Assembly (NCBI GenBank): GCA_016748015.1
Contig: JAAOMT010000258.1
Span: 64,173 to 128,172 of the forward strand
Direction: 5' to 3'
Length of the DNA: 64,000 nt
Origin: Geosiphon pyriformis uo1
Taxonomy: Eukaryota; Fungi; Glomeromycota
In this document: piece after piece, positions 7,846-33,213 of the stretch
How the letters are laid out: every line of letters begins with the position of its first letter
How positions within the stretch are numbered: position 1 is the first letter of the stretch
Notes under the pieces: generated by a model
What the model saw: only the letters and a program-made list of their open reading frames with translations
What the model was told of the DNA's origin: nothing
Databases searched by the model: none
Program-made: the position numbers and the translations under genes

Positions 7846-8546
7846 TGTTATGGCTAAAACTTATACTTCTTATTAATTATTACATGTATTAATCATTGAT
7901 GTCACATAAATTAGCCACTTTATTTTTAGTAAGTGATCATTGACCTGATCAATGACCTAACCATTGACCTGATTATTGACCTAGTCATTGACCTGATTAT
8001 TGATCACTTTTGATAGCTATATAAGTGATAAATTTTTTAGCTGTAGAAAAACATGTAAGAATCAATGTAAGAATAAAGAAAATCAAATAAATAAAATAAC
8101 AACTTTTATCTTAATCTTTTTTATCACTAATTTCTCTTTTCTTACTTTCAAATATCTGAACATCTTAAAAGATAAAAGATTACTTGTTGGTTATTTCCTA
8201 CTCTTTTCCTAAAACATGTAATTGCAGCATTTGAAGATTATTAAAGAAAATGTAATTAAAGAGTATATCTAATACTTGATATTGAATTCTAAGAGCACCG
8301 AGATAAGGCATAGAATTATACCAGACATGATTATTTGTTGACAGTATGGACTATCTCTCTATCTTCAGATTTTCCAGTTACTTTGAAAAGTATAGTGACT
8401 GAGATATTTTATGAGACTGATCTTGCACATTAAATCTATACTTATTCAATTCGCTCTTTAAAGCTGAATTCTCTTTGATTCCTTTCATCACCCTACAATC
8501 CTGTTCTTCTTTGCTATCTGTTAGCTTGTTACTCCAACTTGTAACA
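7846..8546 (+). repeat. Gypsy C 5' LTR (no partner in window)
   Basis: TG...CA termini with inverted TGTTA/TAACA, a (c)attgacct tandem array at ~7935-8010, TATATAA near 8018 and a PBS downstream. Confidence 0.85.
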
Positions 8547-10778
8547 TAAAAGTGGTGCTCCCTATGAAGTTGTCAAAATTCATCTGGTTTTTTATTGTAT
8601 GGGTGATTATTCATACCTGCCATAACAATCAAAAAAACATTTTAAAGCACACAACAAAAACAATCTAAACTTTATTGAACTCAATTTTTTGCCCTTCTGC
8701 TTGATTTGCTTCCCATTAAAAAACAATCCAGCATACAATTCTAAGACTTTTGGAACTGGTTCCTGAATGAACATTCAGCTAAAACCTACACAGCTTATAC
8801 AACCTATTACTTTGACCAAGCTTATTTTGAAGACAACTTTGAAGAAAAAAACAACAGTATCAATCAGCTTTTATATTTTGCAACCTTTGAACAACAGCCT
8901 CCTGATTTTGAATATTTGTATTATCAAATCCACATTTGGATTACTGCTCATCAATCAACAGAAACTTCTCTTAAAACAGAAGAAGAAAGCTATCAAACTG
9001 CTTTTGTTTTTAATCTCTTTTTAAGTGAATTAGAACACTCCACACAAACAATTACACCTAAACCAATGGCTTAAGACCCTCTGCAACAAAATATTCTAAT
9101 TGCTTTCCAAGATATTCAAACTGCTTTAGGGCAAAGAAACAACACTCTATTACCATTATTCAGAAGTGATGTCCAAGACCCAATTGAATAGCTGAATGAT
9201 TTTGAGAGAGCTGCCACAACAAACCAATATGATAATGAATACAAGTTTTAAATCATTTGTGACTACCTCCAAGGCTCTCCTGCTACTTGGTTCTCACAAA
9301 AAACCAATGCCAATGCTCAGAAAAGAATTATTAGATGGGCATGGCAAATGCTGGAGAAGACAACACCTCTTTCACTATCTGGTTTGAAACAAAATTTAGA
9401 ACTCCCATATTAATCTCCAAATGATGTATGGAATTAGAAAAAAAAACTCAAGACCATGGTAAGGTTGTGACAAAATATGCCAAAGCAATAAGAAAACTCA
9501 TTAAACGGGTAGACTCTGGAAGAAATTGGACAAAAGAGCAAAAAATACATTTTTTTATAAAAGAACTGAGAACTGATCTATTATATGCTCTTTGGCCCCT
9601 TCTGGCCTTGAAAAATAATTCCACAATAGATATGGCCATTAAACTTGCTCAAAAAATAGAAGACAATCAAAAGATACACCTAGGATCCATACTTCCAGTT
9701 TTTGTTCTTGCTTCTGTTATGGCTCCTGCTTTTCAAATGGCTGCTACTTCTTTTGCTGCCCAAACTCAAGACCCAAATGAACAGTTAATAGATAGACTTA
9801 CAGCTAATCTTGCCTGGCTATTAGAACCATTAACCCAAGCAGTCAGAGACAACCAGCAACCCCAAAGATCCAGATTTGAACCCTGTTTCAATCAGTCCCA
9901 ACAATCATCATATTAAAGACAGCAAAATTGTGGCCCACCTGTATGCTATCATTGTGGACTAACTGGACACTTTTCCAGAGACTGTAACAATCTTTTATTG
10001 CCTCCTCCAGCTCCCAAAAATAATAACATCCAGAATAACTGACCCAATAATATTAATGTTCCCAATCAAAGACCCAATCATGCCAACATCAATTTCTTTG
10101 GAGAGAATCCCTTAGTTGAAGCTACTGTTTACCAGTTTTTAAACTGATAGGTGCACCTCCAAAAGGTGAGAATGCAAGTCAACTAAAAGAAAACCTTTTT
10201 TATGCTTTTAACCTAACTGATCATGATCATAATATAGATGAACTAGCAATTAACACCTCTGAATCAACCTGAAAGAAGAAAAAAGCCAATGTTGATTTTG
10301 TCTTGGATCCAAACAAAACATCCAAATTATCTGGTGATAACAATGAACCATCAAAAACTAAGGTTTTTAAAAATCCTCCAAAGTTGGAACCTCCAGAAAT
10401 TGTACAAAAATCTGGACCCTATTCTGTTGTTAAAGATTTCATGGAAACTCCAGCACACATTACATTTGGCCAACTAATGATTCATCCACAGTTCAGAAAA
10501 AATCTTTGCAAATTATTGATACCAAAGAAAAAGACACCAAAGACCAATAAATATTCATGTCAAGTTAGACTTGCTGACAATAGTAATGTTACCCCTCTCA
10601 TTTGTAAAGCCCAAGTGGCTGGTTATTTCATTAATCTGATTCTGAATAGTGAATCATCTATTAGCATTATTGCCAAACACTTTTTAGAAGCAATTGGCAG
10701 AAAGATTGATAAACCATTTACAAGACCAATAACCAATATACATGGTAACAAAAAGAAAGATCTAGGTATAGCCAAAGT
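7846..10778 (+). mobile_element. Gypsy C: 5' LTR + PBS + gag-protease of a second family, truncated by a deletion
   Basis: LTR TGTTA(7846)...GTAACA(8546); PBS TGGTGCTCCCTATGAAG at 8553-8569; gag from ATG 9066; CYHCGLTGHFSRDC knuckle near 9943; LILNSESS (degenerate LILDSGSS) protease; abrupt switch to A gag at ~10779. Confidence 0.88.
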
Positions 10779-12620
10779 AATAAATGACAGAGTTTATTGG
10801 CTAATAAGTTGGTAGTTGATAGATTGGCTGTTGTGTCATAGATAGGTAATTCAGTTGATATGGTGTTAGGTTGGATTGATAATTCAGAGCTTGAAACCAG
10901 TAATTGGGATTTCGATATTGATTTTTCGATTGTGAATTATTATTATAAAATCAGTAGTTGGCTTTAATGTGATCTTATTTACCACAGTTATAGCAGACAC
11001 ATGTTTCTTGTTGCCATGGCTGATTTGAAAATAAATACGACTGATTTTAGAAATAATTTGTGTTTCTTAGATTATTGTGCTATTGTGGTGTTTGATAAAT
11101 TGCATAATTGTCAGCTAAATATCCTTCCAATTTCTGATTAATTAATTTACTAAGTTGTTTCAATTTGGAATCCAAGTTAAATGATTCATTTATGACTAGG
11201 TTAACAGCTTGGGCATGATTTGTTTTAAGTTCTGCCAATTCAAAATCTCTCACATTAGTGACTGCATTTTGGAGAGTTTGTGGGTGCATTGAGTGTACGT
11301 GTTGAAAAAGACTACTGTACAGTCCATGAATGAACTGGTTTAGGATCTGTAGTACTGTAAAATAATCAGCCTGAATTGCTTGAATTTGGTGCAAGTTCTT
11401 GTGGAAGCATCCCAAGTAAGTGGTAACTGCTTTAGTTTCTTCCTGTTTAATTATAGTGAAAGCGTTGGCCAGATAATTAATGCTGTTATTATTACTGAAA
11501 TATTCCAAGAATGCAGTTTTAAATTCCAGAAATGTTTGAGATTTAATGACTAGACTCTAATACCATGAGTTGGGAGTATCCTGTAGAAAATAAGGAATTA
11601 CTTGAAGGGCTCTGTTGTTATTCTATCCATTGGCTGCAATGACTTTTTCCACATCATTAAGCCATACTTGGGCGTCGTCCTTTTTACTAGTAAATTTCTC
11701 TATTTTAGTGATTGGAGTGTAAGCCATTGGTTATTGTTGTGATTGCTGCTGAATTTGTTGTTGGAGTAGCAGTTGTGGCTGTTGTTGCTGTTCAGCAATT
11801 GGTGAAGCTGGTGGTAAATTAATCACAATTACTGGAAATAAGTATTGGTGAATTATGTCAGAGTTTTGATTATTTTGGTTTTCCAGAGTTTGATTAACCA
11901 GAGTTTTAATTTCTGAATTTTCTAGGATTGAGTTTTGCTTGTTAACTTTCTGATTACCACTCTCTTTTTCTTTGGAGTCAGTTATTTCCCAAGGACTAAC
12001 AGCTCCGAAATCTGGTTGTGGTGGTGGTAATTGAATTCCTGATGACATTGGGGATTGTGATTTAAATTCTTTGAAAAAATTGTCATATGTTCCTAATAAC
12101 TCTGCTTTCTTTTGTTTACTTTGGAATAAAATTTTGTTTAGCGGTGTTGTTGTGTTTGCTGTAGCTGTGCTTATTATATTGATAGTGCTTCTGGGTGTGT
12201 GGTGATATGATAGATTAGCAGGTGAATCAAATCTTTGTTTTTTCCAAGTGGGTAGTTGGATTTGCTTTGGTGTTCCCACTGGTGTTTATAATCTTCTTTT
12301 TCTTTTGTCGACAAAAGTGATAAAAAATCTCTGTTTGGTGTATTTTTCAATTTCTCTGTTTATTTCTGTAATTAAAGGTGCAAATAGGTAGTTTTGTAAA
12401 AGGGTGGTGTTTTGGAGCAATTCACTGAAGAAGTTGTTGAAGGTAGATTCTGGATCTCTTTGGCCTCCTAAATAGTATACAATTCTCTCGTTGACATAGC
12501 AATTGAAAGCTAATTCTGTTGGCTAACTATTATTTGTTAATCCGAATTGAGTATGATAGTATTAGAATAAGGATTTCACAAATCCCAAGTGGTTGTTCCT
12601 ATTTCTTCAGATTCTGCCAC
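10779..12620 (-). pseudogene. Gypsy A gag (N-terminal extension, capsid, CCHC knuckle)
   Basis: ORFs 11731..12279 and 11080..11508 are homologous to B gag (EYFSNNNSIN..ANAFTIIKQEET.AVTTYLG); PMAYTPI start; CYNCGK knuckle near 10990. Confidence 0.88.
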
Positions 12621-13552: not shown

Positions 13553-16426
13553 GTATGGTGTTCAAACAGATGACCAAGAATCTCAGGTGCATTGAAGAAA
13601 CTAATCACTGCAGCAAAATTGGCTTTAGCTTGTACTTGCTCAAAAGGTTTCAAATCATATAGAGATGGATGGTACAATGCCTTAATGGGGAAATATTTTG
13701 GCAAAAATGCCTTAGCCCTAAGTTCTTTCCTAATTATGATATCCCACTTTTAACACACACTCTTAAAGCTGAAGAACTGCTGAAACCAGATAAGAGAACT
13801 GCTTATTTAACACTGCTTTTCTAAGAACCAAATTCGAAAAAAACCTAACATCCACATGTGCCTTAATGAAACTTGGTTTTAAAAGACCCTCTATAGACAA
13901 AAAAATACCAAAATACCTATGAGATTCACCCTTTCTCGCAACAGAAATAGGTTGGCTACTGATGTACAAAAAGGCATTCTTTACTCTCTGATTGATAAGA
14001 ATTGCCACAGTTTTGTTATTGTTAATGGAAATATTATTTACATTAAAAAATTCACTTGCAATGTTTAGAATATACTGTGTTAAGGCCTGGCCATTACCGA
14101 CCCAGATTGTATCATCAACAAAAGCACCTGCAGCAAAAAAAAATAACATGCCACCACTAAATTCAACTCTGCCAGACTTTACTACAAAATTTGAATTGAT
14201 TCTGTAGCCACACAAATGTTCTTGTCTCTTGATTTTGCACAACAGAGAATCATAAAAAATCTTCCAGAGAAGTAGAAAAAACACTTTATCTTGATCCAAA
14301 CCATCATGAACAATGTAATCATTTGACAAACCAAAATCAGTCATAATCTTATTAATTCTATTCTCATGGATATTCCCAAAAAACTTAATAAATCTGCTAT
14401 ACATTTTAATTCACTTCAAATTGGACTTCAAACAATACCATCTAACCAAATTATAAGCTTTATGCATATTCTGTAGAACCAGCCAAATTTCCCAGTCCTT
14501 TTTCAAAGCATCCTCTACAATCAAACCAATGGCAAACACTGGGAACTAAGTTGAAATACCTCTTAGAACTGAAAAATTGTTATCACAAAGAATGTCAAAT
14601 TTGCTGCAAACCAAGGAAATCCAATTTGACAAAACCTTGGATAAAATCTTTCTTGCTGTCTCAATTAGAGCAATTGGCCTAGTGTTAATCAGAATGCCAT
14701 CACATTTATAGGGCTTGGAGATTATAGAAACTCAGGCTTTCTTCCACAAATCAGGTACATCACCAGCTCTTAAACAAGAATTTAGCAAATCAAGAAGACA
14801 AGCCAACACTTCAGCACTACTGTGCTTCCACAACTCATTAGTTATACCAGAAAGACCAACAGCCTTGCCATCAAGCAGCTCACTGATAATCAGAGACAAT
14901 TCACTCAAACTAATATTACTCATCATGCCTAAGAAGGCATTATCATTCACATGATTTAAAAGGACATACTGACAAGCCCACAAACCAGACAAAGCTGAAG
15001 GAATCTTCCACCTGCAGGTCTAGCCCATCATGATTTCATTCACTTTAGACCAAATCTCTATGGGATCCAAAATCAATTCATCATCAACTACCAAATGATC
15101 TAACACAACTTTGCAAAAAGAATGCTCTAAGACACTTCTAATCATCCCACCTTTGTTAGAATTAAAACTCTCCATACGTTTGTCTATTATGTCCCTAATG
15201 TGTTTGTATTTAGCCAACTCAGCCTCGTAGTATTTGGATTTCTAATAATATTTCCTGACTTTTGACAAAAGACTGCACAGCTCATGTAACTTTGAACCAT
15301 TTTTAAGCAAAACAACAATCTCTGAAGCCTTAACAGCATCAAAAATTGACCAAACCCAAACAAGACAATCCACTTTCACCAACTTATCCAAGCACAAACT
15401 TTTTGTAATCCTGGCAACCAAAAATTTCAGCTTAAAAAACTTCAAAGACTGTTTGTTTTTAGGACTATTAAATTCACAAAACCAATGCTTGGAGAAAGTT
15501 TCATCAGCTAAATTGCAAACAGCACTTCTCAACATCTTTTACATCCCATTCAGATCCCCTTTTTCTTTCAAGACCAAAAAGATATCCAAAAGCAAAGACA
15601 ACCTGATCAAAGAACAATCCCTAAAACAACCCTATTTGACAGCATCTGCATCTTTAATCTTATACTTCCAGCAGACTTTATTAGCCTGCTTGCAAATACC
15701 ATTCAGACAAGCATCAACCAAGCCTCCCAACCCAACTGAGATCCCAACCATATTATGATTGGTTTCAAAAAATTCAGACACAGAAACAACACTATGGCCA
15801 ACAACAGCAGAAAAAAGAACCTCATTCACAAAAACATAATCAATAGTTTTTTTAACTCCTCAGGAATTCCTCCAAATAGGCAACTTACTCAGAAAATGAC
15901 CATCCAGTGAGTTGACCAATCCCAAATCTGAACACTTTCTAAAACTAGCATATCTCCTAGCACTGTCTTTATTAAAATCTCCACCAACAACCACAAAAAA
16001 ACTATTATTAACCATCTTAAAGATGAGTAAGTTAATGTTAAAAGCTTGAGCAAAATGTGTCTTGGCTGAAATATTAGCATACAAACCCAGAAAAGTAACT
16101 GAAAGCTTATTTTTAAACAACAAATAAACAAAGATAACCTAACCAGGAACCTCCTCAACTTTTAAAACATGCCAAGCCAAGGAAATATTTATAACCACAG
16201 CCATACTCATACCAAGAAAACTTTCTACCAGACCAGATGTAAAAATTTTGACACTCTCAAACTTGTTCTTAATCCAAAGACCAGCACTTGCTCTTAACTT
16301 AGTCTCAATGAGAAAGAAAACCATATTACCAGATTCTAGATGCCAATGAACAATGTCTTTTTGTTTCTCTAAATTAGTCATGCTCCTGATGTTACAAATA
16401 GCCACTTTCCAAACTAGACCATTCAT
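13553..16426 (-). pseudogene. LINE-a ORF2 N-terminal part: APE endonuclease and reverse transcriptase
   Basis: APE motifs WKVAICNIRS, ETKL, GGDFN and IDYVFV. RT motifs RPIALIE, VHDGLDQ, AGAFVDDTIW and RYFGIFL. Confidence 0.92.
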
Positions 16427-17065
16427 TGGGAGGAAGAAAGCAATAAAAAATCTGAACCAGAACACAAAAGATCCAACTTAACCAAAACAGAACTGACTAA
16501 CACTTCTAAAGCTGACATCTTAGATTCCAAACCACCCACTTTGGAAGTCAGAATCTTTGAACTGCTTGAATTAAAACCATTAACCAACTTGTTAACACCT
16601 GGAAGAGAGAAAGGGGACGATGTCAACATGCCATCTAGAGCCATATTTGAATCCAAAACAGAAGCCATAGGCACAGAAACAGCCAAAGATAAAGCATAAG
16701 GAGAAGACGCCAATGGCACCAATTCAACAAAACTCAACTTCTTCAGGATACCAGAAATCTGGTCAGACAAGATTTCCAAAAAGCATTCTAGGGAAGCCAA
16801 ATGATCATTCAACTCAGAGACAACAAGAGAATTAGAAGCCAAAGGAGGGAAATTCACACCTGAAACTGGACCAACACTAAGAGTAACTAAAGGAACCACA
16901 TGGAGCAGAGATCTGCCAGCAATCTGGGCCCAAGTTTTTCCACCAAAAGAGACTGGATGTGCAATAAAAGCCTGCTTTTTCTTATAAATACCAGCCAAAC
17001 AAATCTGATTCCAATCAGTTACAATCCATTTCCCACAAACTCCAAAATTTTCACTAACTGAACAC
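16423..17065 (-). pseudogene. LINE-a ORF1, C-terminal part
   Basis: ORF 16423..16998 is homologous to LINE-b ORF 50892..51365 and continues in frame from 27204 across Gypsy B. Confidence 0.85.
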
Positions 17066-17914
17066 TGTTACTTATAGAAATATAGGAAATATATTAGCAT
17101 AATTATTAGCCAATCAGAAGTAAGCATAGTAAATGTGGAATTCCAGGATTCCTCTTAGGAATTGCAAAATTCCAGAAATTTCAGGATTCCTCTCAAAGGA
17201 ATCACAGAATTCCAGAAATTCCAGGATTCCTGTTGTGAAGAATCAAGGAATTGAGGAATCTCAATTATGTATATATAGCAGTAGTGTTAGAAACAGAAAA
17301 GACAGAATCGATACCACAGAATCCTTAGCCTAGAAAACACAATCATCAAATAAATAATTATTCCATATCTCAACCCACTCTTCACTATCAACACTTCATG
17401 TTGATAGTAATTGATACTTAACCATGCTGGAACAATAGCTTTTGATCATGGCTATTGATGAGATACTAATCTGCAAAATCGTCTTGGCTTATTTCTTTCT
17501 TTCTTTATTTTTTTTTTATTTATTTTTCTTTATTTTATTTTGATTTGTTGTTGTATACTAACTGATTAAAAGGATTAAGCACTGAGTTATTGACATCAAG
17601 GATAGCCTGGTAAAAGACCCAGAAATAAGGGTAGAATTTTATATATTATCGAATAGCTTACCAGAAGGGCATGACTGCCAAACTAAATCTGGCCACCACG
17701 CTGAGAAAGAAATTGGAAAAACTCTTGGAAAGATACATTTATTATCGACACTATTGAATCTCTGTTCATTATACAAAGGACTCCACCAAAACCTTCAGAC
17801 CCATCAAAGCCTTCAGATACAACACTTACAGAACATCATCAATGGAAATAGCTTTTGAGCACCAAGTTATGGGTTTGTTATTTAATTCAACCACAGAAAT
17901 AATCACCTGTAACA
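17066..17914 (+). repeat. Gypsy B 5' LTR (849 bp)
   Basis: Direct repeat of 26317-27203; CCAAT at 17110, GGAATTCC array, TATATATA at 17270. Confidence 0.96.
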
Positions 17915-17916
17915 TT

Positions 17917-17933
17917 TGGTGCTCCCTGTGAAG
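17917..17933 (+). other. Gypsy B primer-binding site (tRNA ending ...GGAGCA-CCA, e.g. elongator Met or Ile(UAU); not resolved)
   Basis: TGGTGCTCCCTGTGAAG, 2 nt after the LTR; conserved in four elements. Confidence 0.88.
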
Positions 17934-17976
17934 TATAATCCTACAGAGAACCAGCACCGACAACACCAAACCAAAA

Positions 17977-20900
17977 GTGGCAGAATCAGAAACTATAGGA
18001 GCAAACCATTTAGAATTCGCAAAATTTTTATTTCAACCTTATTGTCAATACTTGGGATTAAACCACAATTATATATCCGCTGAATCAGTCTTCAATTTCT
18101 ACATCAACAAAAAGATTTCTTCTTTATTAAGAACACCAGTGAATACTGAATCAGCAAGGAAAACTTTCTATAGGAAATTAATTCAAAATACCAACCTGCC
18201 AACAAATCATAATTTCGCATCCATCATCACTGAGATCAACAAAGAAATTGAACATCACACTCAACAAAGATATCCAATTACATACGCTAGTAAAGACAAG
18301 GGAAAATTACAAACACCAGCAGTAACACCCAGAAAGATACAGCCACCTGCTTGGAAGAAAAACAGAGTTGAATCCCCAAGCAACCCATCCTACCACTATA
18401 CATCTGGAAGCGCCATCAACATATTATCAACAGACGCATTTACATCAGCTATGACATTAGCATTTGGATGATTCCCATTCCAAAGTAGACAAATGAAAAC
18501 AGAATTGTTAGGACCATACAGCGAGTACTTTGAGGGATTTAATTCGCAATTATTAACCCCATCAGGACTTTGATCACCACCGCCTCCACCAGATTTCAGA
18601 ATTTCTGATCCATGGGAAGCAGTGGAATCAGAAAAGGAGAAAGAAGAATCAGAGGATCAAGAATTCACTTACCAGCACCCAATCACTAAAAACCCGGAAG
18701 TTGAAACCCCAAACCTTCAAACTCAGCAACAGTTAGAAAATCCGGAAATCGAAACTCCGAATATTTGAACACCACCAAATCAAAAAAATCAAGAATCCAA
18801 ATTAATTAATCAGCAAAACTTACCTCCAGTAATCATCATCAATCAACCACCGATTAATCCTATAGCCGAACCCATACAACAGCCACTTCAGCTACCACTC
18901 CAACAGCCAAGACAACAACAACTGCTTCAACAGCCACCACAACCACCTAACTTAGATCCAATGGTCTATGCACCAATCGCAAAACTCGACAACTTTACTG
19001 GCAAAGAGGATGACACCCAAATATGGCTGAACAATATAGAAAAAGCCATCACAGCCAACGGATGGAATGATGCACGAGCAATGCAAGCCATTCCCTACTT
19101 TCTCAAAGATACCACCAATTCATAGTACCAGAGCTTGATTAATAAACCACAAGATTTCAATGTCTTCAAAGTGGAATTTCTGAGATACTTCAGCAACAAT
19201 AATAGCATCAATCGCCTAGTTAATGTATTCACCACTATAAAACAAGGAGAAACTGAAGCAGTCACCACTTACCTGGGACGCTTCTATCGAAACTTACGCC
19301 AAATTCAAGCAATTAACACCAATTATTTCACAGCACCACAGATACTCAATCAGTTTATCCGTGATCTGCGCAGCAGCATCTTACAACATGTACATCCATT
19401 GCATCCTGGCACGCTTCAAGACGCAGTGACACATGCCAGAGATTTTAAATCTGCCGAGTCAGAGACTAATCATGCGCAAGCTGTTAATCTAGTCATGAAC
19501 AGATCATCTGAATTGGATTCCAAATTGAAGAAGTTCAGTGAATCAATTAATAAGAGATTGGAAGGATACTTAGCTGACAATCACATCATTTATCAGTCTT
19601 CACAATGATGCAATAATTAAGGAAACTCTAATCATGGCCAAAATTAACTATGCCCATCTGTATCAACCAATCAACAGTGGCAACAGGAAATGCATATCTG
19701 CTACTATTGTGGGAAACAAGGACATATCCAAATTGACTGTTGCCAGCATCTAAATAACCAACAATCAAGAAATCAATATCAAAACCCCAATCGCCAGTTC
19801 CAAACTCTGAATCATTATCCAAATCAGAATCAAGACCAATATTAAAATAATTACCTGCCCATGACACAGCAACCAATCTATCACCTGCCAGTGTATCAAC
19901 CTCTGATTCATCAGCCGCAGCCACAAGTAATATATCAACTGCAGCCACAAATTATCTATCAACTCCAACCAATTCAAACACCAACCCAGAACCCAGCTCA
20001 AATAACATCAGACAACCCTCAATCCAGAGTCACTTAAAACTGGAAATCGGCAATGGTTGTTCACCAACCAATCCCCAGTTCACTAAACTCATCATCAGGA
20101 TCACACACTCGGAATTTGGATACCAGTCACGTCCAAAACCCAAATTTTCAGCATTATTTAAGTCTCCTAGTTACCCCAGAAAACACCACCTCCAACAACA
20201 CAGAATCCAATCAGCATGTACCTATCAACACCATTCCACTGGCAACCATCTCTAGTGATGAATCCCTAGCAGCCATCTTTCCTTTCGAACTCAAAGAAAA
20301 CACAACAATACCATTATTCAGTGGAGCTGCCCTCGAAGAGAAACTCATAACAGCCATGTACACGGATGCCAAAGTTGATGGTCACCTCATCAAACTCATC
20401 CTAGATAGTGGATCAGCTGGCAGCATAATTACTAGACAACTCATGGATCAATTAGGTCACTGAGTTGATTAAGCTGCCAGTGCCAGAATCATTACAGCTG
20501 ATAGAGCAACCAAAACTCCAATCGGCGAAATCGACAATTTTCCTTTTAAAGTCAATGGCATCATGACTCCCATTAAAGTTCTAATAATGAAAGCCACTTA
20601 ATACCAAGCTCTCATTGGTAATAACTGGCTATCCAAAGCCAATGCAACATTAGACTAGAACACCCAAGAACTCCAGCTAATGTATCAGGGCCAACACATA
20701 CATGTTCTAGCCACATGTGGCCACTTTAAAACTCCTCCAAGAAAGAAACTATTGATCGAGCTGGAGGAGGAGAAAGAAAAGCCTACCTGGGAAGCCTACC
20801 AAGTATCATGGGCTAACGAAGAGCATAACGAGCTGCCGCCAATACTTTCCTAGAACAACAACTATCAGAAAAAAAGAAAACAAAAGGAAGAACTTACCTG

Positions 20901-23900
20901 GGAAATTGATGACCTGACGTGGACCGACCACAATGATAGCAAACCAACTTCAAGTTGGGAATGGGAAGAAGACAATAAAAATAAAGGGAAGGAAAAAGAA
21001 AAAGAGACCACTCAAACCACTACTACTGATAACACCTACATTACACCACAATGATCTATCTATCGTCGACCCAAGCTTATCTGTGTCAATTGTGGCAAGA
21101 AATTGTCATCAATGAGCGCATGCTGTGGGGACGATGAGGAATATTCAACAGCAACTAAGTTCTATTGCCGCCCATGCATCCTTGAATGCTTTGAAAGACC
21201 AAAACGAGTAGAGAAATAGGACAATCAGCCATGCTTAGCTTGTGGAGTGACTCTCTTGGATAAAGGAATATGACATGACATTCCTGGACATGGAGGAACG
21301 TGTGACATATTGTGTCAATACACGATTCTAATAAGTGACTGGGTAAAAAAAGGAACTCCAATAGAAGCAGCCTGGAGAAGAGCAGTACAGCGATTGAACA
21401 GTTACCCACATGACAATGATGAAATTTGGCAAATAGCACTTGCAAAAATCAAAGGGGCGACGCCAGAAGAGATAAAAATGATCAAAGACAACCCTCCAGA
21501 ACCTTTAGAGCTTAACTGGAACACCGAACCCATCATAAACCTCCTGGACCCAGAACAATTCCATAAACACTATCAAGAATTAGCACCCACAAGGGAAGAA
21601 CAAGAACAACGGTTAGAGCAGTTGAACACTCGACTATGTTAACACTGCCTAATTCCCTGTGACTTTCAGTATTGCAATGAGTGTGACCTCATTTACAATC
21701 CACCATCACACATGATCTACACAATCCCGGAAGAGGAAGAACCAATCAGCAGCTGCGCATCAGAATCAGAATCGCCGATCAATCGCGATTCAAACTCCGA
21801 CAATGATGATGACAACAACAGTTCAAGCTCCGTTCAAAAGGGCAATGACAATGACAATAATTCCAACTCAGATACAAACTCTGATGTAAACTATGAACAA
21901 TACATTGCACTACCAGATCTCTTCAAGGAACAAGAGTTGAAATGGTATAGTGACAATGGGGAAGGTATTATGCCAGAATGAATGCATGATACTGATGTAG
22001 GGTTTGATCTAAGATATCCAGGAAAAAATGCCATCAAATTGGAACCACATTCACACACCTGCATTGATCTGAAAATAGCACTAGAAATTCCGGCAACAAC
22101 CATGTTTCAACTAACATCTAAGAGTAGTTTAGCAAAAAGAGGGATTAATATAAGAGGAAGAATAATTGATGCGGGATATGTAGGAAATATCATTGCTATG
22201 CTACAAAATGACTCAGAAAAGGCCTATGTAATAGAGCCCAATAAAAAGATAGCACAGGCAATATTCCTGCCTCTGGTTAGAATAGCTTAGTTAGTATCAG
22301 TGGGAAAGAAGGAGGAATTAGGAATAACGGCGAGAGGAATATAAGGATTCGGATCCACAGGTAGAATAGATGTATCAGTTAACATAGCAGAGGAAGAAAT
22401 TGTTGGCCAAGGAGAAATTATCTCAACTGGTCAAGCTATTTCTATTCCACCATATAGCCAGTATATGTTAGCAATAGAAAGGAAGGAAAAGGAACAAGAA
22501 CAGATGTTTGAAGTGGAAGCAACCCTTTGTGAATCAGGAGAGATTGGATTGATCAATCTCCACATACTAGCTAAAAGCTATAGCAGCATAAAAATTCTCA
22601 TCTACAACAATACTGAGAATGTTATTAGCATACCAGAAGGAACCACCATCGGATATTTGACCACAGAAATAGAGGACCAACCACCAAACCCCATTCCAGA
22701 CTTTCCACAACTTTGTGGATATGTTGACATCACATCACAAACAATCTATGAATGAGACGAATGTTATTTGCTTCAACCAGAACAATTGAAACAAATGAAC
22801 ATAGGAAACTTAGATCCACTCCAATGTATGTAGCTCAAGATGTTACTCAACAATTTCAATGACATCTTTGCCAGTGAAAATGAGTTTGGCTGAACTGACA
22901 TTATTCAGCATCAGATCAAGACTGAAGATGCAATGCCAATCAAACAAAGAGCATACAGAGTGCCGCCAGCCAGCCACGAGATTATTCATCAAGAGATAAA
23001 CAGAATGCTTGACAATAGGCTAATTCAACCATCAATGAGTTCATGGTTGTCACCAGTGGTACTTGTCCATAAAAAAAATGAAAAAATCCGGTTTTGTGTG
23101 GACTACAAAAAACTCAATGGTATAACTCGTGGAGACAGTTATCCAACTCCATGAATACAGGAATTATTCAATGCTTTCGGTGGAAATAAATGGTTCTCCA
23201 CATTAGATTTGGACAGTGGTTACTAACAAGTAGCCATGAATTCAGCTGACAAAAAAAAGATGGCATTTACTACTAGAGAAGGGAATTTCGAATTTGAAGT
23301 AATGCTATTCAGCTTAACCAATGCCCCAGTGACTTTCCAACAGCTAATGGAAATTGTTTATATGAGCTTATTGTGGAAATCAGTAGTTGTATACTTGGAC
23401 AACACCAATGTATTCTCAAAGACGTTTGATGATTATCTTCATCATCTTCAACAAGTGTTCGAAAGACTAAGAAGAACAGGACTGAAGCTAAATGCGACAA
23501 AGTGCTTCTTTGGCAAGACGGAACTCAAATTCTTGAGACACATAGTCAACAAAGACAGCATCAAAATGGATTCAGAGAAAATAGAGATAGTAAAGAATTT
23601 TCCAGTACCAACCAATATAACAGAACTGAAATTATTCTTGGGATTTGCCAGCTACTATTGTCATTTTATCAAGAACTTTTCTAAGATAGCGCAGCCACTC
23701 AATCAACTACAAAACAAAAATGCAAAATATGAATGGACAGAAAGTCAACAAAAAGCTTATCCAAGCTCCAGTGCTGATCTATCCAGATTACAGCAAACTA
23801 TTCATCATCACCACTGATGCATCTGGCCAAGCATTGGGAGCAGTATTATTTCAGAGAAGACTGGACAGCAGAGAACATCCAGTAGCATATGCCAGCAGAG

Positions 23901-25618
23901 GTTTAACACCAGCCGAAAAGAACTATGGAACACCGGAACAAGAACACTTAGCAATATACTGGGCCGTCATAAAATGAAAAAAATACTTGAGCCAGAAGTT
24001 TGAAATATACACAGATCACAAGGGATTAACATCACTCCAAAAATAAGAATTTGGAGATGGAAGACAGTCAAGATGGAAAATGACACTTGGACCATACAAT
24101 TATACTATATATTACAAAAAGGGAAAAGACAATGGAAATGCTGATGGTTTATCGTGAATAAGACAAATTTAAGAACATTTCAACCCAAAAAAATAATAAA
24201 ACCAGAACAATACCAATGGAAAAATACAACTAAAGATGAACATACAAAAATATCAACAATTACAATATTATCTAAATACTCAACAGTTCAAGGAGAATTT
24301 ATCTCATACAGAACAAAGGGGTATTAAACAACAATCAAAATATTTTATTACTTACCAAAATATACTTTATTGGAAAAATAGAAGAGATCCAGATCAACCA
24401 ACCAGAGTAATCACAAAGCCAGAAAAAGAGACAATATTATTTAACATGTACTCAAATCCAACAGCAGGACATTTTCACAAAGAAACAACCATGGAAAGAA
24501 CTAGAAAAAGATACTATTGGCCATCAATGTACTCAGACATCATTCAATATGTTCAAAATTGTGATGCTTGTTAGCGAAGAGGAGGAACAAGACCCAGTAA
24601 ACCATTAAGACCAATCAAAGTAGGACAACTATTTGACTGTATGGGAATTGATTTAGTCGGACCATTAACAATCACCAGCAGAGAAAACAGATACATAGCA
24701 GTAGCTATAGATTATCTCACTAAATGGCCAGAGGCAAAAGCAATTCAAAGAGTGGATGCAGAATCTGTTGCCGAATTCGTTCATCAGAATTTGATTTGTC
24801 GACATGGATGTCCAAAAGAATTATTATCAAATCAAGGAACTCATTTTGTGAACAGAACATTAACAGAATTGAGCCAAAGATTCGGGATCAAGAGACCATT
24901 ATTATTACCATACCATCCACAAACCAACGAATTAGTAGAAAAATTCAACAGAACATTGTGTGAAGCAATAGCCAAGCTCAGCCAAGAAAACCAGAACGAT
25001 TGGGATTTGTTCATACCATCAGTACTATTTGCTTATTGGACAATGAAACAAGATACTACACAAGCAACACCATTTGAATTAGTATACGGGAGAATAGCAA
25101 CATTACCAGTAGAAAGAGAAATTAACACATATCCAGCTGAACCAATAACAGAAGAAAATTTTCAAAAAACATTGCTGAGAAGAACATATGACTTAATGGA
25201 AACATTGGAAAACAAACGAAGAAGAGCAGCTGATAATATCCAAAAGTCACAAAAAACACAAAAAAAAAGACACGATAGTCAACTACCAGACAAACCAGTT
25301 GAATTCAAGATCAGAAACAAAGTATTACTATATTGTACCAAAGCGGAAAAACAATGGAGTAGAAAATTTGATCCCAAATAGGACAGACCATTTCAAATAG
25401 AAGAAAATCTAGGAAATGGAGCTTACAAATTAAGATTGGATAACAAAATTTTAACCAAAGCAGCACATAGAGATCGACTGAAACCATATCACAACATCAC
25501 ACTACTATCTACCAGTAATATTTCACAATTAGGAGTACAGAGAATACTAGTCCAACCAGATGAGATTCCACAAGATCTGAAACCAATTATTATTATCGAC
25601 AACAACACGTTAAATTGA
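17977..25618 (+). pseudogene. Gypsy B single-frame Gag-Pol polyprotein (Gag-PR-Cys-rich-dUTPase-RT-RH-IN)
   Basis: ORF pieces from 17977 to 23236 share one frame; after a 23-bp deletion at ~23755, pieces 23720-25436 share one frame. Motifs: CYYCGKQGHIQIDC (19699-19740), LILDSGSA (~20395), YLDN (YLDD), TTDASG, H..CDAC, GIDLVG / LSNQG / VEKFN and a GPF-like RPFQI. Confidence 0.95.
21961..22362 (+). pseudogene. dUTPase domain within Gypsy B pol
   Basis: All five trimeric dUTPase motifs: VGFDL, SKSSLA, IIDAGYVGNI, KIAQAIF and RGI*GFGSTG. Confidence 0.93.
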
Positions 25619-25642
25619 TCCATCAAAAGAATATATAAAGAC

Positions 25643-26302
25643 ATGGTAGACACAACAGGAAATATCAGAAAAATGGAAATTACAGACAACATTCACTCAT
25701 TAGCACAACAACTCTTTCAATTAATCCAACACCAGGAAATGGAGATTACAATCAATCAACAAACCATTTGATATCAAGATACTAGAAAAACATTTCAACT
25801 CAGAACACAGAAGAAAACTGAAAATACCATGGACAAAATTATGGCAAAAGTAAAATTAGCAATAAAAGAATCGACAAAAGAGTCACTATATCAAGAGTTG
25901 ACTAAAGAAACTTGGAATTGGTGGATACAACAATTCCCACGAAACTATTGTTATTTCTACTTGGGACAACACGTAAATATTCAAAATCTATATACGGATA
26001 AAACAAAGCGATTATTTGACAAAAGAATACTACAACAATTAGAACATTTTGTGAGAAAGAACAACTTATCTACACAAGCCCAAGCCATATACCGAATACA
26101 CACAGCATTTCAAAATAAACCAGAAATATTACACAACAGAACAATGGATATGGTTACCAGTAATCAACTAGGAAAAATCACCAATGCTCAATTTGAAAAA
26201 TTACAAACCCAAATAACACAAGTAATTCTCGAAAACGAAATCCAGAAAATACTTCAAGAAGGGGAATTACATGAGTTAGATTTCGATGAAGCTCAATATT
26301 AA
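25643..26302 (+). pseudogene. Gypsy B extra 3' ORF (~219 codons, unknown function, one in-frame TGA)
   Basis: ATG 25643 is in frame with ORF 25829..26302. The stop overlaps the PPT. Homologues occur in A, D, E and F. Confidence 0.85.
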
Positions 26303-26316
26303 AAAGAAGGAAATAA
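26301..26316 (+). other. Gypsy B polypurine tract
   Basis: AAAAAGAAGGAAATAA immediately before the 3' LTR. Confidence 0.87.
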
Positions 26317-27203
26317 TGTTACTCATAGAAATATAGGAAATATATTAACATAATTATTAGCCAATCAGAAGTAAGCATAGTAAATGTGGAATTCCAGGAT
26401 TCCTCTCAGGAATTGCAGGATTCCAGGAATTTCAGGATTCCCAATAAGGAATTGCAGGATTCCAGAATTCCAGGATTCCTCTCAAAAGAATCGCAAGATT
26501 CCAGGAATTCCAGAATTCCTGTTGTAAAGAATTGAGGAATTGAGGAATCTCAATTATGTATATATAGCAGTAGTATTAGAAACAGAAAAGACAGAATTGA
26601 TATCACAGAATCTTTAGCCTAGAAAACACAATCATCAAATAAATAATTATTCCATATCTCAACCCACTCTCCACTATCAACACTTTATGTTGATAGTAAT
26701 TGATACTTAACCACGCTGGAACAATAGCTCTTGATCATGGCTATTGATGAGATACTAATCTGCAAAATCCCCTTGGCTTATTTTTTTCTTTCTTTATTTT
26801 TCTTTTATTTATTTTTCTTTATTTTATTTTGATTTGTTGTTGTATACTAACTGATTAAAAGGATTAAGCACTGAGTTATTGACGTCAAGAATAGCCTGGT
26901 AAAAAACCCAGAAATAAGAGTAGAATTTTATATATTATCAGATAGCTTACCAAAAGGGCACGACTGCCAGACTAAATCTGGCCACCACACTGAGAAAGAA
27001 ATTGGAAAAACTCTTGGAAAGATATATCTATTATCGACACTATTGAATCTTTGTCCATTATACAAAGGACTCAACCAAAACCTTCAGACCCATCAAAACC
27101 TTCAGATACAACACTTACAGAACATCATCAACAGAAATAGCTTTTGAGCACTAAGTTACGGGTTTGTTATTTAATTCAACCACAGAAATAATCACCTGTA
27201 ACA
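26317..27203 (+). repeat. Gypsy B 3' LTR (887 bp)
   Basis: Direct repeat of the 5' LTR, 38 bp longer; the extra length lies in the U3 tandem array. Confidence 0.96.
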
Positions 27204-28508
27204 ACACACATCAAAAACATGACCAAATTGTTTACATTTGGCACAACACACTAATGAAAGACTAGCCCAGCACAAGTTCACTCATTTGAACACTGGGACA
27301 AAACCAATAGTAGCCAATTTGAATGCTTTATTAGCAAAACAAACCACAGCACATCTGTCATATACATATGAACTAGGATTGTGACCAATAAAACAAGTTC
27401 TCTTACCATATGAATCAAACAAACCAGACAAATCATGAGCAGTGATGCCAACTGGCAAAGTATAGAGCAAAGCTCTATGCTAATCTTTAAATACCTAAAA
27501 TTGTTTATTATCAATAGCTAGCACCACTTAAACTGAATTTTTTCTTATGAAAACAAACTATTTAGAAGCAACCAAACAGATAGCATCTACTGAATCAAAC
27601 TTAATCACAGCTTTTTGCCAAAGACCAATTAATTGCATCTTAACAGAAACAATCCCACCAAATTTGAAAAAGACTAATATAATGGCTAATTTGGGAAAAT
27701 CAACTGGAATCTCCTTGACAATCACCTCCTGATTTGACCAGCTGTTTACCTTTTTAAGATCATTATTGACAAAAATTTCTTCACTGATTGTCAGTGCCTT
27801 AGCCTTATTCAAACTAAATTCTGATGTAAAAGATGATATGATAATTCCAGAGAATTTTGAGGGAGTGGAGACACCTCCAAAATCATCTACTTGATAGAAA
27901 ATTTTTTTTATCGAAATTAATTTATTACTAACTAACTTGTCAGGCACTGCAGAAAACTTAATATTAAGTGCAAAAAATTTTGTCAAATTAAAACACCATG
28001 TTTCTAGGACATGTGATATGAGTGGTGGTACCTGATTAGACCTAATATCTACATGAGAAGGAAGCTTTAGCACAACATTGTTGTCACTCATACATTCGAA
28101 AAAAAGTTGCTTTAGTAGATTGCCCAACACATACATTCGAGTGTAAGTTTTTCCCAGTGTAGTCTCATTCATATTATTGTCTTCATTTGATTCCACATAA
28201 TTGGTTTCCTTAGTCACTGTGTTTGCCATAGTTTCTACATCTGAGAGATTGCTTATACTGCCAGCAACACTGCCAATTTTACTTCTCCAGAACACCCCAG
28301 ACTTGATGTCAATACTCCTAATATTTTCTATGCTCAACAGGCCAGCAGACAAGTCGATCACATTACTGGCAACAATCTTTTTTGGTTTTTTGTAGGACAT
28401 ACTTCAAGAGTAGACCATATCCACACACTTACTTTTTGCACTTTGGCAGGTCCCCAAACCAGCCAAAATTGAACTCGAGCCATCAACAGAAAAGCCCACT
28501 AGTTCTAT
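27204..28508 (-). pseudogene. LINE-a ORF1, N-terminal part with CX2CX4HX4C knuckle
   Basis: ORF 27558..28400 plus 27282..27470. The CAKCKQFGHVFDVC knuckle ends at the Gypsy B junction. The start (ATA GAA CTA GTG GGC) matches the LINE-b and LINE-c starts. Confidence 0.85.
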
Positions 28509-28653
28509 TGTGACAAACAGAGATATAGTAAAAGAAATAGCTAATAGAAACTAGGAGAAAGGAAAAAAAAAAAGCAATTTCTTCAAAGTTATCTATGCTC
28601 TCGTTGAGATCAGAGGATCAACAAGAGAAAGATGTACTCACTTTAACTTATAT

Positions 28654-30489: not shown

Positions 30490-30638
30490 CCAGTTGATAT
30501 CATTCGATATCAAATCTGTTGACATCATCAATTTTTCTCATATTATATATACTCTTGCCGTAATTTACAAATTTCAAAAGTCAGATTTCAAAAGTCAAAT
30601 TTCAAACTCATAAAACTTAAACACGTACTATAAGCTTC

Positions 30639-33213
30639 ATGTATCGTAGGGTTTACTACAAAAAATACCTAAGGTTCTATAGTGATGAAGAATTGGAGCC
30701 CTATATTAGAAAAAAACCAGTTGAAACCTCTCAAGTGGGGAATAACGAGTCTGTAGACGTCCCAGTGGCCAAAATTGAGGGAAGCAGTATTCCCTTCCAA
30801 AACACTTCGTCAAACGACGAAGAGGTAAATGTGGACTTGACCAAGACAAGTGTAACTATAAAAGAAAAAGTTTCTNNNNNNNNNNNNNNNNNNNNNNNNN
30901 NNNNNNNNNNNNNNNNNNNNNNNNNNNNNNNNNNNNNNNNNNNNNNNNNNNNNNNNNNNNNNNNNNNNNNNNNNNNNNNNNNNNNNNNNNNNNNNNNNNN
31001 NNNNNNNNNNNNNNNNNNNNNNNNNNNNNNNNNNNNNNNNNNNNNNNNNNNNNNNNNNNNNNNNNNNNNNNNNNNNNNNNNNNNNNNNNNNNNNNNNNNN
31101 NNNNNNNNNNNNNNNNNNNNNNNNNNNNNNNNNNNNNNNNNNNNNNNNNNNNNNNNNNNNNNNNNNNNNNNNNNNNNNNNNNNNNNNNNNNNNNNNNNNN
31201 NNNNNNNNNNNNNNNNNNNNNNNNNNNNNNNNNNNNNNNNNNNNNNNNNNNNNNNNNNNNNNNNNNNNNNNNNNNNNNNNNNNNNNNNNNNNNNNNNNNN
31301 NNNNNNNNNNNNNNNNNNNNNNNNNNNNNNNNNNNNNNNNNNNNNNNNNNNNNNNNNNNNNNNNNNNNNNNNNNNNNNNNNNNNNNNNNNNNNNNNNNNN
31401 NNNNNNNNNNNNNNNNNNNNNNNNNNNNNNNNNNNNNNNNNNNNNNNNNNNNNNNNNNNNNNNNNNNNNNNNNNNNNNNNNNNNNNNNNNNNNNNNNNNN
31501 NNNNNNNNNNNNNNNNNNNNNNNNNNNNNNNNNNNNNNNNNNNNNNNNNNNNNNNNNNNNNNNNNNNNNNNNNNNNNNNNNNNNNNNNNNNNNNNNNNNN
31601 NNNNNNNNNNNNNNNNNNNNNNNNNNNNNNNNNNNNNNNNNNNNNNNNNNNNNNNNNNNNNNNNNNNNNNNNNNNNNNNNNNNNNNNNNNNNNNNNNNNN
31701 NNNNNNNNNNNNNNNNNNNNNNNNNNNNNNNNNNNNNNNNNNNNNNNNNNNNNNNNNNNNNNNNNNNNNNNNNNNNNNNNNNNNNNNNNNNNNNNNNNNN
31801 NNNNNNNNNNNNNNNNNNNNNNNNNNNNNNNNNNNNNNNNNNNNNNNNNNNNNNNNNNNNNNNNNNNNNAATCTAGAAGGCGAAGAAAACCTAGCAGACG
31901 AAGAAAATCTAGAAGACGAAGGAAATCTGGAGCGCAAAGAATATCTAGCAGACGATGAATATCTAGCAGACGATGAATATCTATCAGACGATGGATATCT
32001 AGCAGACGATGAATATCTAGCAGACGATGAATATCTAGCAGACGATGAATATCTAGCAGACGAAGAAAATCTAGAAGACGAAAAAAATCTAGAAGATGAA
32101 GAAAACCTCGAACGCAAAGAAAATCTGGCAGACGAAGAAAATTTAGAACGCAAAGAAAATCTAGAAGACGAAGAAAATTTAGAACGCAAAGGAAATGAAA
32201 GTGAAGTAATTATGGAAAATAATAAAAATAAGATTACTCAATTGAGAGTGATTGAAGAAAAAACATTAAAAGTTCATCAAGAAATGGGAATATCCAGCGT
32301 TAATAATAAGGAAAATAATAATNNNNNNNNNNNNNNNNNNNNNNNNNNNNNNNNNNNNNNNNNNNNNNNNNNGGGATAACGGGGCCAAAAAAACAAAGGT
32401 GATATCGAGTCCTTTCTGTGAAAAGGAGACCAATAGTGATAAAATCCTCCTAATGGAGGAGAAAACTGGTGAGACGAGGCAAGCTATTGAAGAAAATCTA
32501 GAAGATGAAGAAAATCTAGAAGGCGAAGAAAACCTAGCAGACGAAGAAAATCTAGAAGACGAAGGAAATCTGGAGCGCAAAGAATATCTAGCAGACGATG
32601 AATATCTAGCAGACGATGAATATCTATCAGACGATGGATATCTAGCAGACGATGAATATCTAGCAGACGATGAATATCTAGCAGACGATGAATATCTAGC
32701 AGACGAAGAAAATCTAGAAGACGAAAAAAATCTAGAAGATGAAGAAAACCTCGAACNNNNNNNNNNNNNNNNNNNNNNNNNNNNNNNNNNNNNNNNNNNN
32801 NNNNNNNNNNNNNNNNNNNNNNNNNNNNNNNNNNNAAATAGAGATTTGGATAGTAAAGTAAATGAACTGAAAATGGCCAGAAAGGAATCACTGATACAAA
32901 ATCACAATGAGGAGATTGAAGGCGATGACTCCTTAGTGCCTGTTGTTTTTATTGACAACAGCAACCTTTTTGAAATTGAGGCTCGTTGTGTAAAATCAAC
33001 AGCTGATATTAATCCATCGAAAGGATACAGGTAATATTTCGTATCAAATTTTTTAATATGTTAAATAACAGCAACTGAAAATTAAATATTGATGACTTTA
33101 GGAAAAGAAAATCGGATGTTGAAGTGGATAGGTGGGTAGGAAGCAGGAAGAAGCAACACCTTGATTCAAGGACAGAAAATTCAATACCAAAGAGAAAAAA
33201 AAAATACAAATAA
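30639..33213 (+). CDS. Host gene for an acidic hexapeptide-repeat protein with basic NLS-like C-terminus (gapped; segment order uncertain; predicted intron 33031-33101)
   Basis: ATG 30639 is open up to the gap; EYLADD/ENLEDE repeats; CpGs retained. Removing the 71-bp GTAATA...TTTAG intron gives RKRKSDVEVDRWVGSRKKQHLDSRTENSIPKRKKKYK*. Confidence 0.7.
31870..32756 (+). repeat. 18-bp coding tandem repeat (GAATATCTAGCAGACGAT / GAAAATCTAGAAGACGAA); 31870-32113 duplicates 32513-32756
   Basis: Read directly; the 244-bp duplicate blocks abut N gaps. Confidence 0.9.

What the first reader, a model, noticed from the sequence alone, without database searches (positions are those of the whole stretch)
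17857..17960. PBS flanked on both sides by tRNA-3'-end mimics: a conserved two-state RNA switch (possibly self-priming)
Seen: U5 contains GAGCACCAA (17857-65), which copies the tRNA 3' end including CCA and is complementary to TTGGTGCTC at the PBS. It closes a long hairpin with GTTA(C)GGGT/ACCTGTAAC and TTATTT/AAATAA across the LTR end. Just downstream, AGCACC(A/G) at ~17953 can pair with the same PBS through an alternative hairpin (CTGT..AGG-TATAAT-CCT-ACAG). Both mimics occur in A and D, whose U3 regions are unrelated. A shows a G-C to A-U covariation (GGAT/ATCT) in both LTRs. Family C has GAGCACCG at ~8293. Known: Tf1/sushi elements self-prime with their own RNA, and retroviral U5-PBS stems gate initiation. 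Inference: mutually exclusive structures gate tRNA access, or supply an internal primer after cleavage.
Basis: partly seen in the sequence, partly recalled or inferred. Interest (0 to 1): 0.8.

Follow-up and report, generated by a model that had tools for sequence, protein, structure and literature searches.

The report
Retrovirus-style primer dock in fungal retrotransposon
A jumping gene of a Geosiphon-like fungus carries, around its primer-binding site, conserved sequences predicted to hide that site in a hairpin and to give a methionine tRNA extra handholds, so it likely starts copying itself the way retroviruses do and not by self-priming.

Summary
The sequences are there. The site is the 5' LTR/PBS border of a Ty3/Gypsy element; all 120 listed ORF1 homologs are from Geosiphon pyriformis. 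The U5 arm (17857-83) is real and conserved: it folds over the LTR end and the first 8 PBS bases (z -4.2). The G-C/A-U 'covariation' shows no association across 40 gene-model copies (p=1.0). The downstream mimic is conserved and probably non-coding, but its fold is 2-8 kcal/mol worse (pairing probability at most 0.03). Self-priming is unlikely: the PBS matches elongator tRNA-Met 3' ends 17/17, and TATA/AATAAA place the arm about 550 nt inside the RNA. Family C has that motif too, plus an anticodon-loop match. The likely arrangement is a retrovirus-like initiation domain. The host tRNA and RNA data were unavailable. The scan noted a similar idea in another genome (e1-7508199).

The parts
17066..17914 (+). 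5' LTR of element D (TG...CA, 849 nt); 3' LTR at 26317-27203; 4-bp target duplication ACAC
17270..17277 (+). TATA-like box conserved in all six LTRs of D, A and B; marks the inferred U3/R border
   Evidence: function inferred
17349..17354 (+). AATAAA conserved in all six LTRs; the inferred R ends shortly after, leaving a U5 of about 540 nt
   Evidence: function inferred
17759..17774 (+). U5 strand of the predicted U5-leader stem (7 bp + 7 bp with 17933-49)
   Evidence: 23 of 23 columns of 17756-78 free of transversions and indels in six LTRs; highest depth bins
17791..17799 (+). first copy of the U5 motif complementary to elongator tRNA-Met nt 39-47
17809..17818 (+). second copy of the tRNA-Met-complementary motif (ACCTTCAGAT; one mismatch in this copy, exact in D 3' LTR and both A LTRs)
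   Evidence: 13 of 14 columns conserved
17857..17865 (+). upstream PBS complement GAGCACCAA; pairs with 17916-24 and hides the first 8 PBS bases
   Evidence: EHQV constant while the three preceding codons take 11 forms in 48 gene models
17866..17913 (+). U5 inverted-repeat stem-loop including the LTR end; variable loop 17884-96
17917..17934 (+). primer-binding site, 2 nt after the LTR end; the family majority has G at 17932; matches tRNA-Met(CAU) 3' ends over 17 nt
17953..17960 (+). downstream PBS complement AGCACC(A/G)A; conserved, probably non-coding, role unproven
17977..25612 (+). decayed coding region from a GTG: N-terminal extension, capsid, zinc knuckle, protease, dUTPase, RT, RNase H, integrase with SH3-like end, no chromodomain
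8361..8371 (+). family C: same tRNA-Met-complementary motif (one C>T)
8409..8420 (+). family C: 12-nt complement of the elongator tRNA-Met anticodon stem-loop (10 nt against L023, 12 nt against the human sequence)
8553..8569 (+). family C PBS, same tRNA type

Best explanation
This is the primer-binding region of a fungal Ty3/Gypsy retrotransposon, likely primed by elongator tRNA-Met and predicted to fold like a retroviral initiation domain. In the free RNA the U5 arm is predicted to zip over the LTR end and the first 8 PBS bases, leaving the 3' half of the PBS only weakly paired as an entry point. The zinc-knuckle Gag would then anneal the tRNA 3' end (about -28 to -31 kcal/mol against 12-17 to open the site). 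The predicted result is a PBS-tRNA helix framed by a U5 inverted-repeat stem and a U5-leader stem. The U5 motif between the two stems would grip tRNA nt 38-47, like a primer-activation signal. The two states would thus be 'PBS closed' and 'tRNA loaded', not upstream against downstream mimic. Shown: sequences, conservation and complementarity. Inferred: all RNA structures, the host tRNA, the R/U5 border and the function.
For: Hairpin z -4.2 and P(arm:PBS) 0.96-0.995 in D, A, B. Conservation stops at the stem borders: 28/29, 18/19, 23/23 and 15/15 columns in paired blocks against 7/37, 6/11 and 9/16 in spacers and loop. Contig depth peaks at 17756-83, 17854-81 and 17910-37. Leader:U5 duplex -15.1 to -15.7 kcal/mol, reached by 9, 13 and 3 of 500 shuffles; RNAalifold predicts all 14 pairs in 3 of 3 copies. 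With the PBS held open, both stems form at P 0.96-1.0 in all three models. 61 of 110 tRNA loci found with the PBS-derived pattern are CAU tRNAs with this 3' end. All 8 window matches to ACCTTCAGAT (up to 1 mismatch) lie in these elements' U5 on the sense strand. A 10-nt match to any of 22 tRNA-Met variants has p 0.012-0.03 in D and A. In family C two matches to the same tRNA have p 0.006-0.012, and one extends to 12 nt against the human elongator tRNA-Met printed in PMC8216282.
Against: The host tRNA gene was not seen (no genome held); only 1 of 22 tRNA-Met variants has the matching arm, and other isoacceptors (Thr, Leu, Lys, Arg) share the 3' end. The U5 domain tested was chosen after the fact; over D's whole U5 a 9-nt match has p=0.068. 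The motif count alone is weak (8 seen, 3.95 expected, 3 of 100 shuffles). No stem shows covariation: the consensus has 1 double change in 43 pairs and the covariation term is unfavourable (+0.56). In free A, and in B with long context, the U5-leader stem loses to the local hairpin (P 0-0.24 against 0.5-0.85). C's leader:U5 duplex is not significant (48 of 500). The downstream AGCACC block stays unexplained.
Confidence: 0.7

Rival explanations
1. The downstream AGCACC(A/G)A is a functional second PBS clamp. It would act once the U5 arm is gone, for example after reverse transcriptase and RNase H have removed U5, helping to release the tRNA from the PBS or closing the PBS on U5-less RNAs.
For: 11 of 11 columns conserved at 17950-60 against 9 of 16 just after. 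Its spacing to the GTG falls in all three frames among gene models (37, 4 and 6 of 64; 17 unclassified), so coding does not explain it. The A/G variant at 17959 keeps pairing with U. Without the U5 arm P(PBS:downstream) is 0.88-0.91.
Against: 2-8 kcal/mol worse than the U5 state in full context and far weaker than the tRNA duplex. An 8-mer match has p=0.04 after the fact. Family C has no significant equivalent. The block could instead contact the tRNA D-loop or act as a splice or packaging signal (untested).
Confidence: 0.15
2. R lies at the very end of the LTR, so the conserved upstream blocks are U3 and act from the RNA 3' end: a Ty1 CYC5/CYC3-like circularisation and a Ty3-like split tRNA contact.
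For: The same complementarities hold for the 3' LTR copy. Both mechanisms are described for yeast elements (PMC3592414, passages).
Against: TATA-like and AATAAA motifs are conserved 200-290 nt into all six LTRs, with the variable repeats upstream of them.
Confidence: 0.07
3. The stems serve mainly another purpose, such as shielding the PBS from 3' tRNA fragments, packaging or dimerisation, or integrase recognition of the DNA end, and do not regulate priming.
For: Conservation without covariation fits sequence-specific recognition equally well; the LTR end and PBS are constrained anyway.
Against: Two separate conserved U5 blocks are exact complements of PBS-flanking sequence, and a third matches the primer tRNA.
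Confidence: 0.05
4. Tf1-type self-priming: the U5 mimic is cleaved and primes reverse transcription.
For: A 9-bp self-complement to the PBS exists, and Tf1/Tj1 use such a pairing (PMC4600332, passages).
Against: Tf1/Tj1 use the 5' end of the mRNA; here the arm lies about 550 nt after the inferred start. Priming there would copy only about 50 nt and miss R (inference). The PBS has a full tRNA acceptor plus T-arm match, kept in the divergent family C. No chromodomain.
Confidence: 0.03

Closest known systems
Retroviral initiation domain: Rous sarcoma virus U5-IR and U5-leader stems with the U5-T-arm contact; HIV-1 PAS and A-rich loop
   Same: U5 stem at the LTR end, a U5-leader stem closing the PBS domain, and a U5 element that pairs with the primer outside the PBS. 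Seen as passages: U5-IR loop (PMC3601003), RSV stem-loop needed for initiation (PMC5445492), PAS and U5-leader stem (PMC3675109, PMC1865047, PMC11181671), U5-anticodon complementarity stabilising tRNA-Met use in HIV-1 (PMC1797187). The detailed RSV layout is recalled, not read.
   Different: The host is a fungus and the element a Ty3/Gypsy retrotransposon. The contact is to the anticodon-stem 3' strand and variable loop (nt 38-47), not the T-arm, and occurs twice. The motif is predicted mostly unpaired, whereas the HIV-1 PAS is masked. A second PBS complement lies downstream.
Ty1 (PBS plus Box 0/1, CYC5/CYC3) and Ty3 (bipartite PBS) of Saccharomyces
   Same: Methionine tRNA primer with extended contacts beyond the PBS (PMC3592414, passages).
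   Different: Ty1 uses initiator tRNA-Met, a 10-nt PBS and downstream boxes; here the match is to elongator tRNA-Met, 17-18 nt, with upstream contacts.
Tf1/Tj1/sushi self-priming elements
   Same: LTR sequence complementary to the PBS.
   Different: There the complement is the mRNA 5' end and no tRNA is used (PMC4600332, passages); here it is deep in the inferred U5 and the PBS is tRNA-shaped.
Conserved Hairpin Site of fungal GalEa Copia elements (PMC5445492, passages)
   Same: Conserved hairpin at the LTR border in fungal elements.
   Different: GalEa elements lack a PBS and are Copia; this element has a classical TGG PBS.

Membership tests
Ty3/Gypsy LTR retrotransposon | Two LTRs (TG...CA), target duplication, purine tract | tested here: met
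   LTRs 90% identical, 4-bp duplication ACAC, purine-rich tract before the 3' LTR
Ty3/Gypsy LTR retrotransposon | Domain order gag-PR-RT-RH-IN | tested here: met
Tf1/sushi self-priming elements | PBS complementary to the first bases of the transcript | tested here: inconclusive
   The only complement in the LTR is at 17857, about 550 nt after the TATA-inferred start; the start was not mapped
Tf1/sushi self-priming elements | PBS not complementary to a tRNA 3' end | tested here: not met
   17/17 match to tRNA-Met 3' ends with CCA added
Chromovirus clade | Chromodomain after integrase (recalled; absent in some members) | tested here: not met
   only a Tf2-like SH3 match below cut-off
Chromovirus clade | RT phylogeny | not tested
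   No named references on hand; ten close integrase relatives carried no organism names
Retroviral-type initiation domain | About 18-nt PBS 2 nt after the LTR end, matching a host tRNA | tested here: inconclusive
   Met against non-host tRNA-Met; host tRNA unavailable
Retroviral-type initiation domain | U5 inverted-repeat stem at the LTR end | tested here: met
   Predicted and conserved; not probed
Retroviral-type initiation domain | U5-leader stem | tested here: met
   14 bp predicted in D, A, B; no covariation; not significant in C
Retroviral-type initiation domain | U5 element pairing with the primer outside the PBS | tested here: inconclusive
   10-12 nt matches, p about 0.01-0.07, host tRNA unseen
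Retroviral-type initiation domain | Structures required for initiation | not testable with these tools
   needs mutagenesis
Two-state RNA switch | Two folds of similar energy | tested here: not met
   downstream state 2-8 kcal/mol worse, P at most 0.034
Two-state RNA switch | Covariation supporting the stems | tested here: not met

The most novel reading that the evidence does not exclude
A fungal Gypsy lineage has independently built a complete retrovirus-like primer-handling machine for elongator tRNA-Met, run in steps: a U5 clamp hides the PBS, duplicated U5 motifs open the tRNA at its anticodon arm, and a second, downstream tRNA-end mimic strips the primer off the PBS once U5 has been copied and degraded. 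An RNA-encoded primer-release step was not found in the papers searched.
Probability: 0.15. Interest if true: 0.65.

Novelty: new variant of a known kind. Interest (0 to 1): 0.38.

Why it matters
Outside Ty1, Ty3, Tf1 and copia, little is known about how LTR retrotransposons load their primer. If the model holds, the stem-plus-activation-signal layout studied in retroviruses also exists in an early-diverging fungal Gypsy lineage, with a different tRNA contact. That bears on whether the layout is ancestral or convergent. It also makes a sharp prediction about the host tRNA-Met sequence that one tRNA scan can test. It is not a new priming mechanism.

Tried and rejected
No whole genome is held, so copies and the host tRNA could not be collected. 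No RNA holder was listed among runs; this says nothing about expression. Runs X2 and X3 laid nothing. The variant tables are visibly incomplete (17906 C>T is absent although 3 of 6 window LTRs have it), so absences there were not used. Pattern scans for family copies found 0 in viral contigs and 0 in prokaryote genomes. ARAGORN found no tRNA in the window. A CGA codon hidden in the PBS (read-through from the LTR) was considered; no T>C variant at 17929 was listed and all three copies have T, so it was dropped. Coding constraint on the downstream mimic was rejected because its spacing to the GTG varies in frame. The idea that ACCTTCAG pairs with the PBS 3' half was mostly rejected (P 0-0.25). 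Whole-PBS duplex energies against shuffles did not separate any mimic from chance (70-382 of 500). Integrase relatives gave no organism names, so the clade is unresolved. Earlier-findings look-ups by sequence and by place were empty.

Full report
Setting. Self-comparison shows three related full-length LTR elements in the window: D (17066-27203, +), A (about 13552-3131, -) and B (about 47021-36866, -), plus a fragment C nested in A. D has LTRs 90% identical, a 4-bp target duplication and the order capsid, zinc knuckle, protease, dUTPase, RT, RNase H, integrase: a Ty3/Gypsy element. No chromodomain was found. All 120 listed homologs (of 123) of the reading frame after the PBS are gene models of Geosiphon pyriformis. 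The copies decay almost only by transitions (277 against 18 between LTR pairs). No genome is held, so family evidence came from six LTRs, contigs of one run and gene-model translations that happen to cross the region.

The upstream arm is real. 17857-74 and 17877-83 pair with 17897-903, 17905-13 and 17916-24 (-25.6 kcal/mol, z -4.2, 0 of 200 shuffles). In the alignment, 28 of 29 arm columns and 18 of 19 partner columns have no transversion or indel, against 7 of 37 just upstream and 6 of 11 in the loop. Contig depth peaks over the arm as high as over the PBS (depth is not a copy number). In 48 gene models the arm reads [EK][HY]QV while the three codons before it take 11 forms; that search was seeded with the arm, so it favours conserved copies. 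A and D are not independent evidence, because their R-U5 regions are homologous.

The covariation is not supported. The pair 17873-17906 can be read from two codons. Of 46 gene models matched, 6 were dropped as unreadable; the other 40 give G/C 23, G/T 7, A/C 8, A/T 2 (Fisher p=1.0). P0141, dropped by the script, reads A/T and changes nothing. A sub-lineage with an A-U pair may exist, since A has it in both LTRs, but both changes follow the decay bias. RNAalifold on three junctions finds 1 double change in 43 pairs.

The primer. The PBS starts 2 nt after the LTR end; 79% of laid depth has G at 17932. Its complement has the shape of a tRNA acceptor strand plus T-stem. A pattern for that tRNA end found 110 metagenome loci. 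61 are CAU tRNAs with this exact end, in 22 sequence variants, 10 loci with an intron in the anticodon loop. Most others are Thr tRNAs with a different discriminator; a few Thr, Leu, Lys, Arg and Glu tRNAs also fit. None is the host's. The match is 17 of 17 with CCA added; the 18th base is unverified. Family C keeps the same PBS.

17759-65 pairs with 17943-49 and 17768-74 with 17933-39. The U5 block has 23 of 23 conserved columns and the highest contig depth. In free RNA the two compete: U5-leader P is 0.96-0.98 in D, 0-0.24 in A, and 0.86 or 0.14 in B depending on context. With the PBS held open, as by a bound tRNA, the U5-leader and U5-IR stems both form at 0.96-1.0 in all three decay-corrected models. 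The stem shows no covariation, and C's equivalent is not significant (48 of 500).

ACCTTCAGAT, present twice in U5 between the two stems, is the complement of nt 38-47 of the tRNA-Met in L023 and of human elongator tRNA-Met (PMC8216282, passage). All 8 window matches with up to one mismatch lie in U5 of D, A, B and C on the sense strand (the count itself is only about twice chance). Allowing all 22 variants, a 10-nt match has p 0.012-0.03 in D and A; over D's whole U5 a 9-nt match to one tRNA has p=0.068. Family C, whose LTR did not align with the others, gives a fairer test. It has the motif at 8361 and a second match at 8409 to the anticodon loop (joint p 0.006-0.012). The second match extends to 12 nt against the human sequence, with the stem letters that the first motif predicts. 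This points to elongator tRNA-Met as primer, but stays a prediction until the host tRNA is read.

The downstream mimic. AGCACC(A/G)A at 17953-60 is conserved (11 of 11 columns). It is probably non-coding: its distance to the conserved GTG falls in three frames (37, 4, 6 of 64 gene models, 17 unclassified), though single-base decay or gene-model splicing could explain some rows. In full context it pairs with the PBS at P 0.005 or less (0.034 at best after decay correction) and is 2-8 kcal/mol worse. Without the U5 arm it pairs at about 0.9. So it is no equilibrium switch, but it could act after U5 is degraded. A contact to the tRNA D-loop or a splicing or packaging role are untested alternatives.

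Self-priming. Tf1 and Tj1 prime with the 5' end of their mRNA (PMC4600332, passages). Here a TATA-like box (17270) and AATAAA (17349) are conserved in all six LTRs, with variable repeats upstream. That places the arm about 550 nt into the RNA (inferred). Cleavage there would give a 50-nt product lacking R. With the tRNA-shaped PBS in two families, self-priming is unlikely.

Comparison and novelty. The layout parallels the retroviral initiation domain (passages of PMC3601003, PMC5445492, PMC3675109, PMC1865047, PMC11181671, PMC1797187; RSV details recalled) and the extended tRNA contacts of Ty1 (PMC3592414, passages). Passages of PMC3185550 and PMC8473020 were also seen. Searches (listings only) showed no paper on this element's primer region. 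The library lacks most subscription papers and no supplements were read. Verdict: a real, conserved cis-element; a new variant of a known kind; interest 0.38.

Noticed in passing
window 17977-18960: The gag frame carries about 330 extra codons with a coding signal (third-position transversions 59 against 35/36 and 47 against 26/23; 10 of 11 indels are multiples of 3). It starts at GTG (V in 58, M in 6 of 64 gene models). Either GUG initiation, or a splice into AG|TG at 17977 that builds an AUG; no RNA data.
   Followed up: partly
window 21982-22380: dUTPase between protease and RT (Pfam E 3e-16), preceded by a cysteine-rich stretch with no Pfam match (20902-21700).
   Followed up: partly
window 25616-26299: Extra reading frame between integrase and the 3' LTR, no convincing Pfam match.
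   Followed up: partly
window 17821-17829: In D a CTTACAG stretch, and in B a similar one, is predicted to pair with the PBS 3' half, so the whole PBS may be covered by a split tRNA-end mimic; position not conserved, absent in A.
   Followed up: partly
window 17485-17575: T-rich tract followed by TACTAAC and AG in D's LTR looks like an intron 3' end, but the branch-like motif is poorly kept in A and B; it may be a poly(A) downstream element.
   Followed up: no
window 7846-10810: Family C fragment nested in A in opposite orientation; 6 nt between its apparent LTR end and PBS, against 2 nt in A, B and D.
   Followed up: partly
window 13560-17065 and 27208-28606: D is inserted into an older minus-strand element related to 48259-52924; no PBS of the same type was found for it.
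   Followed up: no
window 30600-33000: 18-bp tandem array interrupted by N gaps.
   Followed up: no
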